Below are positions 50,852 to 51,113 of a stretch of DNA of 64,000 nucleotides, one piece after another; position 1 is the first letter of the stretch, and each line of letters starts with the position of its first letter. Position numbers and translations under genes: made by a program. The DNA is from Escherichia coli. Lineage in GTDB: Bacteria > Pseudomonadota > Gammaproteobacteria > Enterobacterales > Enterobacteriaceae. The stretch lies in the NCBI RefSeq assembly GCF_003334255.1, contig NZ_QOWU01000009.1. The stretch is one strand, 5' to 3'. Under the pieces are notes generated by a model, which worked only from the letters and a program-made list of their open reading frames with translations, was not told where the DNA came from and ran no database searches.

Positions 50852-50905
50852 ATGTTGTCCAAACAAATCCCGCTTGGCATCTATGAAAAAGCGCTCCCCG
50901 CCGGG
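50852..50905 (+). pseudogene. ulaE: ulaE 5' remnant (L-ribulose-5-phosphate 3-epimerase), cut after about 18 codons
   Basis: MLSKQIPLGIYEKALPAG matches the UlaE N-terminus, then the frame runs into AT-rich unrelated sequence and stops at 51055; the rest of ulaE and ulaF are absent from the window. Confidence 0.75.
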
Positions 50906-51113
50906 GATGAACTTAATCAATCTATATTATTGAATAATAAGTATATATTTAAACGCCTCCCTATAAATAGCCCCCAATATAGCCCCCAAGGTGTAGTTGT
51001 TATACATGGAGGTATATTGAACTCTGTTGAAATATTCTCTGTAATGGTTCAGTGAATGCAGCATACCTACCTGTCTTGTTCCGGACGAGACACAATACCT
51101 GTGATATATAAGT

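What the first reader, a model, noticed from the sequence alone, without database searches (positions are those of the whole stretch)
50852..51113. Island junction inside ulaE: ascorbate operon cut 18 codons into the epimerase gene
ulaA-D are intact and K-12-like, but ulaE keeps only MLSKQIPLGIYEKALPAG before the sequence switches to AT-rich non-coding DNA and then the first island gene at 51114. CP4-type elements normally sit at tRNA genes with an integrase; here the boundary is inside a metabolic gene and no integrase, IS or tRNA is visible. This suggests either a new integration site or a recombination/inversion that moved a pre-existing element next to ula, and the strain has probably lost UlaE/UlaF function. 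The junction also contains the tandem decamer ATAGCCCCCA (twice, about 50970-50995).
Basis: partly seen in the sequence, partly recalled or inferred. Interest (0 to 1): 0.65.

Follow-up and report, generated by a model that had tools for sequence, protein, structure and literature searches.

The report
Pathogenicity island integrated in ulaE
The break 18 codons into ulaE is the far end of a large E. coli pathogenicity island that its own integrase inserted at a 14-bp site inside the gene; this ula site was already reported in 2020, so the finding is real but ordinary.

Summary
ulaA-D are intact. ulaE matches K-12 up to 50907 and then gives way to 35%-GC non-coding DNA and a CP4-type gene module.

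It is neither a rearrangement nor an assembly artefact. It is the integrase-distal attachment junction of a site-specific genomic island. In the closest complete genome (TB06053, 99.2% identical over 16 kb) the island is about 93 kb. Its other end is an intact P4-family tyrosine integrase, lying 175 bp from the rest of ulaE, followed by ulaF and yjfY.

The 14-bp core CTCCCCGCCGGGGA (50894-50907) is a direct repeat at both ends and occurs once in K-12. Both junctions are found in 64 of 5,426 complete E. coli genomes, with islands of roughly 38-130 kb.

The "tandem decamer" is a pair of TAGCCCCCA motifs spaced 12 bp apart. The same pair sits next to the integrase start at the other end, and the motif recurs in tRNA-targeting relatives. 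It is most likely the integrase's arm-type binding site.

ulaE is genuinely split. The remnant has no usable start codon and is cut off from the ula promoter.

Biggel et al. 2020 already named "ula" as a pathogenicity-island integration site. Interest is low.

The parts
47986..50842 (+). ulaA, ulaB, ulaC and ulaD, intact and collinear with K-12. This is the chromosomal flank on the promoter side of the integration site.
   Evidence: RefSeq annotation of the 99.2%-identical TB06053 region mapped onto the window; ORFs.
50852..50907 (+). Native 5' fragment of ulaE (18 codons plus 2 nt), identical to K-12.
   Evidence: Direct comparison with MG1655.
50852..51055 (+). Chimeric 67-aa ORF: 18 ulaE codons fused to island DNA. 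RefSeq annotates it as a hypothetical protein (WP_047645199.1). Probably a meaningless by-product.
50894..50907 (+). att core CTCCCCGCCGGGGA, covering ulaE codons 15-19. It is the direct repeat that bounds the island. In intact ulaE it is part of the perfect dyad CTCCCC-GCC-GGGGAG.
   Evidence: The same 14 bp lies at the integrase-side junction in TB06053 and once in K-12. The repeat is 17 bp in the diverged variant CFSAN061770. The dyad was picked up as a 5-6 bp stem, and it is the only TCCCCNNNGGGGAG in the window.
50908..50967 (.). 60-bp AT-rich spacer between the core and the arm motifs. Its length is conserved while its sequence is largely different in the diverged island variant.
50968..50988 (+). 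Two TAGCCCCCA motifs with a 12-bp period (50968-50976 and 50980-50988). Proposed arm-type binding sites for the integrase.
   Evidence: Only two copies in the window. The same pair lies 17 bp from the integrase ATG at the other end. Motif and spacing are conserved in the variant whose integrase is 90% identical. 38 of 78 relatives from other genera have at least two GGGGG runs in the 130 nt upstream of int, and 32 of those 38 are 12 bp apart, against 2 of 1,431 control windows.
51005..51033 (+). Two further short blocks shared with the integrase-side arm: CATGGAGG (51005-51012) and TCTGTTGAAAT (51023-51033). Role unknown; possibly accessory-protein sites.
   Evidence: The diverged variant has CATGGAGG (attL) or CATGGA (attR), and TCAGTTGA (attL) or TCTGTTGA (attR).
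51114..64000 (-). Integrase-distal CP4-type module of the island, running off the window end. Gene order: DUF4942, DUF957, DUF5983, CbtA toxin (52749-53126), YeeU-family antitoxin, hypothetical, DUF987, RadC/JAB, antirestriction, DUF932, DUF905, IrmA (57119-57574), YeeR-like (57650-60172), Ag43 (60287-63406), GTPase (from 63734).

Best explanation
The window holds the integrase-distal attachment junction (ulaD side) of a large mosaic genomic or pathogenicity island.

Proposed mechanism: the island's own P4-family tyrosine integrase inserted it by site-specific recombination between the island attP and a 14-bp core, CTCCCCGCCGGGGA, in codons 15-19 of ulaE.

The integrase gene lies at the opposite end of the island, outside the window. 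It is divergent from the 5'-truncated ulaE, which is followed by ulaF and yjfY.

The paired TAGCCCCCA motifs 60 bp inside this junction, and a second pair next to the integrase start, are most likely the arm-type sites bound by the integrase's N-terminal arm-binding domain.

Unlike tRNA-targeting relatives, this island does not rebuild its target. ulaE is split. Its remnant begins just after an in-frame stop codon with no ATG, and ulaE'F are separated from the ula promoter by the whole island. UlaE function is therefore probably lost unless the island excises.

Shown here: junction anatomy, direct repeats, integrase identity, distribution. Inferred: the binding role of the motifs, present-day mobility, the metabolic consequence.
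For: 1. The closest complete genome, TB06053 (99.2% over 16 kb), has a ~93-kb island. Its other end reads integrase (393 aa), 175 bp, ulaE remnant, ulaF, yjfY.
2. The 14-bp core is present at both ends and once in K-12. ulaE is split with no base lost or gained beyond the repeat.
3. The integrase carries Arm-DNA-bind_3, Phage_int_M and Phage_integrase domains and matches the P4-like integrase model NF007246, though below its cut-off.
4. The attL junction is in 64 of 5,426 genomes and the integrase-ulaE junction is also in 64. Hosts are diverse and island sizes run about 38-130 kb, computed by hand from the coordinates in those calls.
5. A diverged island variant (integrase 90% aa identical, different cargo) uses the same core, with the same motif pair at exactly 60 bp, although the spacer sequence is largely different.
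6. Relatives in other genera (<=55% identity) sit downstream of tRNA genes in 50 of 60 loci. 38 of 78 have at least two GGGGG runs just upstream of int, 12 bp apart in 32 of the 38, against 2 of 1,431 controls.
7. A sister integrase (83% aa) uses a second non-tRNA site, between yhfS and frlR, with a near-identical attP and the same TCCCC-N3-GGGGAG dyad.
8. The ulaE remnant is preceded by an in-frame TAA or TAG and is annotated from an ATC codon. Decay is seen in 2 of 6 genomes sampled: a 17-aa ulaF deletion in TB06053 and an internal stop in ulaE in NCTC9082.
9. Biggel et al. 2020 independently list ula as a PAI integration site.
Against: - The integrase end is not in this window, and the source genome itself is not among the complete genomes (best junction match 99.8%). 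The far end is therefore inferred from near-identical genomes.
- No excision product, circular attP or integrase activity has been observed.
- Spread among strains could be partly by homologous recombination of the flanks rather than by repeated integration.
- The arm-site role of TAGCCCCCA rests on conservation and position only.
- The candidate excisionase in the island is weak (TIGR01764 at 22.9 bits, below its cut-off).
- SgbU and SgbE paralogues might mask any ascorbate phenotype (my own knowledge, not tested here).
Confidence: 0.9

Rival explanations
1. A pre-existing tRNA-borne CP4-type element was moved next to ula by an inversion, deletion or other large rearrangement.
For: No integrase or tRNA gene is visible in the window. 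Two genomes, JNEC-KY203 and GN02050, do show the two island ends on opposite strands, so inversions touching the island occur.
Against: A 14-bp direct repeat lies at both ends and ulaE is split exactly. The integrase sits directly against the ulaE remnant. In every row listed in both tables except the two inversions, the two junctions lie on the same strand, 38-130 kb apart. A diverged variant uses the same core.
Confidence: 0.03
2. Assembly chimera or mis-join at a repeat.
For: None beyond the abrupt change in sequence.
Against: The identical junction is present in 64 independently assembled complete genomes.
Confidence: 0.01
3. The island integrated into ulaE once or a few times long ago and is now immobile. 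It then reached this and other strains by homologous recombination of large chromosomal segments, using the conserved ula and yjfY flanks.
For: Cargo is highly mosaic and rich in IS elements, while the two ends are conserved. Some remnants have decayed, as expected for long residence. No excision evidence is available.
Against: The integrase ORF is annotated as intact in every listed row of the 64 and is at least 99% identical in 63 genomes. The att arms are conserved in motif and spacing across variants. A sister element uses a second site with a matching core change, which implies that integrase-driven targeting has operated.
Confidence: 0.3
4. Insertion by an IS element or transposon rather than by a tyrosine recombinase.
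For: Many IS elements lie inside the islands.
Against: There is no transposase and there are no terminal inverted repeats at either boundary. The boundary repeat is a specific 14-17 bp sequence shared with attB, next to an integrase.
Confidence: 0.01

Closest known systems
PAI at the 'ula' integration site of uropathogenic E. coli (PAI 6-Pyelo-ula and PAI 67-Pyelo-ula, CC144; Biggel et al. 2020, Nat Commun, PMC7686366)
   Same: Same chromosomal site (the ulaD/ulaE boundary) and an integrase-flanked island. An O16:H6 strain, the serotype Biggel records for CC144, is among the 64 genomes carrying both junctions.
   Different: The paper places the insertion between ulaD and ulaE. Here it is resolved to a 14-bp core inside ulaE codons 15-19. 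The closest complete relative of this window carries hlyCABD, iha, Ag43 and a two-partner secretion locus, with no pap operon in its annotation. The cargo therefore differs from the papGII Type I island.
CP4-type (cryptic P4-like) islands of E. coli such as CP4-44, CP4-57 and CP4-6, and the tRNA-associated PAIs of UPEC
   Same: P4-family integrase with an arm-binding domain. Same accessory module: GTPase, Ag43, YeeR-like, DUF932, antirestriction, RadC, DUF987, YeeU/CbtA, DUF957, DUF4942. Flanking direct repeats.
   Different: The target is a protein-coding gene rather than the 3' end of a tRNA or tmRNA gene, and the target gene is not reconstituted. The identities of the K-12 elements are from my own knowledge.
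Lambda-type attP architecture (core flanked by arm-type integrase sites)
   Same: A short core with dyad symmetry, and repeated motifs 60 bp and about 130-150 bp from the core on the two arms, close to an integrase that has an N-terminal arm-binding domain.
   Different: No binding data exist. No IHF consensus was found in either arm. Motif orientation and number differ from lambda (my own knowledge).
Gene-disrupting prophages and islands that act as excision switches ('active lysogeny', e.g. the comK prophage of Listeria)
   Same: Integration inside a coding sequence, such that precise excision would restore the gene.
   Different: No evidence here of regulated or reversible excision. The element is a 38-130 kb island rich in IS elements, and some ulaE/ulaF remnants have decayed.

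Membership tests
Integrase-mediated genomic island (P4/CP4-type) | Tyrosine integrase gene at one end of the element | tested here: met
   Not in the window, but present in TB06053 and in every listed row of the 64 genomes with the junction. It has Arm-DNA-bind_3, Phage_int_M and Phage_integrase domains.
Integrase-mediated genomic island (P4/CP4-type) | Short direct repeats (att core) at both ends, single copy in the empty site | tested here: met
   CTCCCCGCCGGGGA lies at 50894-50907 and at the integrase-side junction, and occurs once in K-12.
Integrase-mediated genomic island (P4/CP4-type) | Integration into the 3' end of a tRNA or tmRNA gene, with the gene reconstituted | tested here: not met
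   The target is ulaE codons 15-19 and the gene is split. By contrast, 50 of 60 relatives in other genera have a tRNA gene just upstream.
Integrase-mediated genomic island (P4/CP4-type) | CP4-type accessory gene module | tested here: met
   The run from DUF4942 through CbtA/YeeU, RadC, antirestriction, DUF932 and Ag43 to the GTPase occupies 51114-64000.
ula-site PAI (Biggel et al. 2020) | Island inserted at the ulaD/ulaE boundary and flanked by an integrase | tested here: met
ula-site PAI (Biggel et al. 2020) | Carries the papGII operon (Type I papGII+ PAI) | tested here: inconclusive
   The window covers only 13 kb of the island. The closest complete genome has no pap genes in its annotation of the island, so this is probably a different cargo type at the same site.
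Excision switch ('active lysogeny'-like) | Reversible, regulated excision that restores the disrupted gene | not testable with these tools
   Precise excision would restore ulaE, because the core is identical at both ends. No excision data exist.
IS or transposon insertion | Transposase with terminal inverted repeats and a target-site duplication at the boundary | tested here: not met
   There is no transposase or inverted repeat at either boundary.

The most novel reading that the evidence does not exclude
The ulaE-targeting integrase and its yhfS-frlR-targeting sister form a P4-family sublineage that has left tRNA targets for TCCCC-N3-GGGGAG dyads. Site choice would then be reprogrammed mainly by the central triplet of attP. 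Because the island splits ulaE without rebuilding it, regulated excision and re-integration could act as a reversible switch for anaerobic ascorbate catabolism in pathogenic E. coli.
Probability: 0.1. Interest if true: 0.5.

Novelty: already known. Interest (0 to 1): 0.2.

Why it matters
It matters little beyond annotation.

- It shows that a junction lacking an integrase in one window can still be a normal att site whose integrase lies about 90 kb away.
- It refines the published "ula" PAI site to a 14-bp core inside ulaE.
- It flags that RefSeq calls the decapitated ulaE remnant an intact UlaE, starting from an ATC codon.

The modest biological points are these. About 1% of complete E. coli genomes, including UPEC, ST69 and O111:H8 strains, carry a virulence island that splits the ascorbate operon. 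A small P4-family integrase sublineage also appears to use protein-coding or intergenic dyads instead of tRNA genes.

Tried and rejected
- **IHF sites.** I scanned both att arms for the IHF consensus WATCAANNNNTTR. There was no match in the main variant, and only 1-mismatch hits in the diverged one. I claim no IHF site.
- **Island proteins.** NCBIfam scans of the window's DUF4942, the 214-aa hypothetical, the YeeR-like protein and IrmA returned nothing. Their names come from the RefSeq annotation only.
- **Excisionase.** The 68-aa HTH protein in TB06053 gave only a sub-threshold excisionase-domain hit.
- **Second core.** I looked for a degenerate core to the right of the arm motifs, which would have indicated a tandem-element remnant. 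I found none by eye, so I did not adopt the tandem-array idea.
- **tRNA mimicry.** I compared the ulaE core by eye with the tRNA-Phe and tRNA-Arg 3' ends targeted by the nearest relatives. The resemblance (8-9 of 14 positions) is not distinguishable from GC-rich chance, and I dropped it.
- **Other species.** None of the 80 relatives from other species carries the ulaE core or TAGCCCCCA. I found no evidence that ulaE is targeted outside E. coli.
- **Literature.** Four searches found only Biggel et al. 2020 as relevant. The O104:H4 "Ula operon (RD2)" loss, the UlaG evolution paper and the DHAP-shunt paper do not concern this junction.

Full report
**1. The observation**

Reading 50500-51500 and listing ORFs confirms the description.
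- ulaD ends at 50842.
- An ATG at 50852 opens MLSKQIPLGIYEKALPAG.
- Comparison with MG1655 shows base-for-base identity through 50907, after which the sequences are unrelated.
- The next 206 bp are non-coding and 35% GC.
- The first island gene, a DUF4942 gene on the minus strand, occupies 51114-51962.
- ulaA-D are annotated as intact in a 99.2%-identical genome.

The "tandem decamer" is real. ATAGCCCCCA lies at 50967-50976 and 50979-50988, which is a 12-bp period. TAGCCCCCA occurs nowhere else in the 64-kb window, against 0.2 copies expected.

The only tRNA genes in the window are three tRNA-Gly at 20.4-20.7 kb. No integrase lies between the junction and the window end.

**2. What it is**

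The 501-bp junction occurs at >=80% query coverage in 64 of 5,426 complete E. coli genomes (98.8-99.8% identity in the 30 records listed). The hosts are very different: human UPEC, ST69, O111:H8, and pig, chicken, bovine and water isolates. An assembly artefact is therefore excluded.

The closest genome over 16 kb is TB06053, at 99.2%. Walking along it shows a ~93-kb mosaic island carrying:
- Ag43;
- a two-partner-secretion haemagglutinin locus;
- hlyCABD;
- iha;
- lactate-utilisation genes;
- an iron ABC transporter and a UhpC-like module;
- many IS fragments.

At its other end lies an intact 393-aa tyrosine recombinase. This is followed, 175 bp away and divergently oriented, by the rest of ulaE, then ulaF and yjfY.

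The integrase-ulaE junction also occurs in 64 of 5,426 genomes. From the coordinates I computed island lengths by hand. They range from about 38 to 130 kb.

**3. The attachment sites**

The integrase-side junction reads ...aataaatcCTCCCCGCCGGGGAgtgctggctgg.... The window junction reads ...aaagcgCTCCCCGCCGGGGAtgaactta.... K-12 has a single copy...aaagcgCTCCCCGCCGGGGAgtgctgg....

So a 14-bp core (window 50894-50907, ulaE codons 15-19) is duplicated at the island ends. No other base of ulaE is lost. In intact ulaE the core is part of a perfect dyad, CTCCCC-GCC-GGGGAG. The terminator scan picked this up as a 5-6 bp stem.

The integrase has the three domains of lambda/P4-type integrases: Arm-DNA-bind_3, Phage_int_M and Phage_integrase. 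It matches the P4-like model NF007246, below its cut-off.

**4. The repeated motif**

The pair TAGCCCCCA-N3-TAGCCCCCA lies 60 bp inside the window junction. A second pair in the same orientation lies 17 bp from the integrase ATG at the far end, 138 and 150 bp from the core.

A diverged island, in CFSAN061770, has an integrase 90% identical in amino acids and largely different cargo. It is inserted at the same core, where the repeat is 17 bp. It keeps both motif pairs:
- On the distal arm the spacing to the core is again exactly 60 bp, although the 60 bp themselves are largely different.
- On the integrase arm the spacing is 10 bp shorter, about one helical turn.

The nearest relatives in 80 other species are at most 55% identical. 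Among 78 relatives examined, 38 have at least two GGGGG-containing motifs in the 130 nt upstream of the integrase start, and in 32 of those 38 the first two are exactly 12 bp apart. Only 2 of 1,431 control windows do the same. In the examples printed, many relatives without G-runs show analogous 12-bp-spaced pairs of other sequences, and an inverted copy often abuts the ATG.

This is an inference from position and conservation. It has not been shown by binding.

**5. How unusual the target is**

Of the 60 closest relatives from other species, 50 have an intact tRNA gene (Phe, Arg, SeC, Thr, Gly, Asn or Ser) on the same strand, ending roughly 160-400 bp upstream of the integrase. At least seven of the other ten show a tRNA 3' fragment there by eye. 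None carries the ulaE core. The ulaE integrase is thus a member of a tRNA-targeting clade that has moved to a protein-coding target.

It is not alone. The integrase gene at >=99% identity is in 63 genomes, but 82 genomes have a full-length relative. One of these, in GPEC1040, is 83% identical in amino acids and heads an ~83-kb island inserted between yhfS and frlR. That island has near-identical att arms and much the same cargo as the CFSAN061770 ula island.

The K-12 empty site there reads CGCCCC-TTT-GGGGAG-AGGG. The two junctions read CCCCTTTGGGGAGG|atctattg and caccaTTCCCCTCTGGGGAG|AGGG. Both chromosomal targets therefore share a TCCCC-N3-GGGGAG dyad, and the two attP versions differ essentially in the central triplet.

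This suggests that ulaE is hit because it happens to contain this dyad. It is the only such site in the 64-kb window.

**6. Consequence for ula**

The promoter-proximal part, ulaA-D plus 18 codons of ulaE fused to 49 island codons, stays under the ula promoter.

The ulaE remnant at the far end is preceded by an in-frame TAA, or TAG in the variant. It has no ATG. PGAP annotates it as a 271-aa "UlaE" starting at an ATC codon, which I regard as an annotation convenience. Only a weak promoter-like match (9 of 12 positions) points towards it.

Among six genomes inspected, one has an internal stop in the ulaE remnant (NCTC9082). Another has a 17-aa in-frame deletion in ulaF (TB06053). The other four are intact. 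This fits relaxed selection after recent insertion, but it is a small sample.

Loss of UlaE function is therefore likely but inferred. The SgbU/SgbE paralogues (my own knowledge) could mask a phenotype. Precise excision would restore ulaE.

**7. Comparison with what is known**

Biggel et al. [quoted passage not shown] They give "ula: ulaE - ulaD" as the flanking markers. Their Supplementary Fig. [quoted passage not shown] An O16:H6 strain, the serotype Biggel records for CC144, is among the carriers found here.

The integration site is therefore already described. This analysis adds four things:
- nucleotide resolution (inside ulaE, 14-bp core);
- the arm motifs;
- the frequency, about 1.2% of complete genomes;
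- the sister site at yhfS-frlR.

The mechanism is the ordinary one for integrase-borne islands.

**8. Rivals**

- A rearrangement that moved a tRNA-borne element is contradicted by the direct repeat, the exact split of ulaE, and the integrase abutting the remnant.
- A chimera is excluded by 64 independent assemblies.
- IS-mediated insertion is excluded by the boundary anatomy.
- A real open question is how this particular strain acquired the island: by integrase action, or by homologous recombination of the flanks from another carrier. I cannot separate these here.

**9. Verdict**

The feature is already known in kind and in place, and interest is low (0.2). The most novel reading still open is a reprogrammable, dyad-targeting integrase sublineage whose excision could toggle ascorbate catabolism. 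I give it about 10%.

Noticed in passing
L093 2780-3010, L096 32310-32560 and L094 4850-4900 (GPEC1040 NZ_CM142794.1 about 397.4-480.5 kb; K-12 yhfS-frlR intergenic region): A sister integrase (83% aa identity) heads an ~83-kb island inserted between yhfS and frlR. The att arms are near-identical to those of the CFSAN061770 ula island, and the core differs mainly in the central triplet of a shared TCCCC-N3-GGGGAG dyad. This is a second non-tRNA attB for the same integrase sublineage. I made no literature search for this site.
   Followed up: partly
L003 14673-16123 (TB06053); L092 2378-3193 (NCTC9082): The detached ulaE'/ulaF show decay in some carriers. TB06053 has a 17-aa in-frame deletion in ulaF. 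NCTC9082 has an internal stop in the ulaE remnant. Four other sampled genomes are intact.
   Followed up: partly
L003 16121-16123; L004 3563-3565; window 50852-51055: RefSeq/PGAP annotates the decapitated ulaE remnant as a full 'L-ribulose-5-phosphate 3-epimerase UlaE'. The annotated start is an ATC codon directly after an in-frame stop. The 67-aa chimeric ulaE'-island ORF is annotated as a hypothetical protein. Both look like annotation artefacts that hide the disruption.
   Followed up: yes
L007-L086, the 130 nt upstream of each integrase start: P4-like integrases across Enterobacterales often share an upstream layout: two direct copies of a lineage-specific 7-9 bp motif spaced exactly 12 bp apart, frequently followed by an inverted copy abutting the integrase ATG. 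This suggests arm-site binding that could also autoregulate int. The motif sequence differs between tRNA-target groups.
   Followed up: partly
NZ_AP045179.1 (JNEC-KY203) and NZ_CP095505.1 (GN02050), coordinates: In these two genomes the ulaD-side and integrase-side junctions lie on opposite strands, about 100-130 kb apart. This implies an inversion with one end inside the island.
   Followed up: no
attR arms: L003 16120-16300 versus L004 3400-3565: The distance from the integrase-side motif pair to the core differs by exactly 10 bp between the two island variants (138/150 bp versus 128/140 bp). The distal-arm distance is fixed at 60 bp.
   Followed up: no
window 20366-20665: Three tandem tRNA-Gly(GCC) genes, apparently glyVXY, with no island attached. 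The 30.5-kb distance from here to ulaE appears the same as in K-12; this rests on my memory of the K-12 coordinate and was not checked.
   Followed up: no
L003 17762-25554 and the same genes in L089-L092: The genes next to the integrase are conserved among main-type ula islands in the five such genomes inspected: a response regulator, a MASE1 sensor kinase, a UhpC-like receptor and an Fbp-type ABC transporter. The rest of the cargo varies widely.
   Followed up: no
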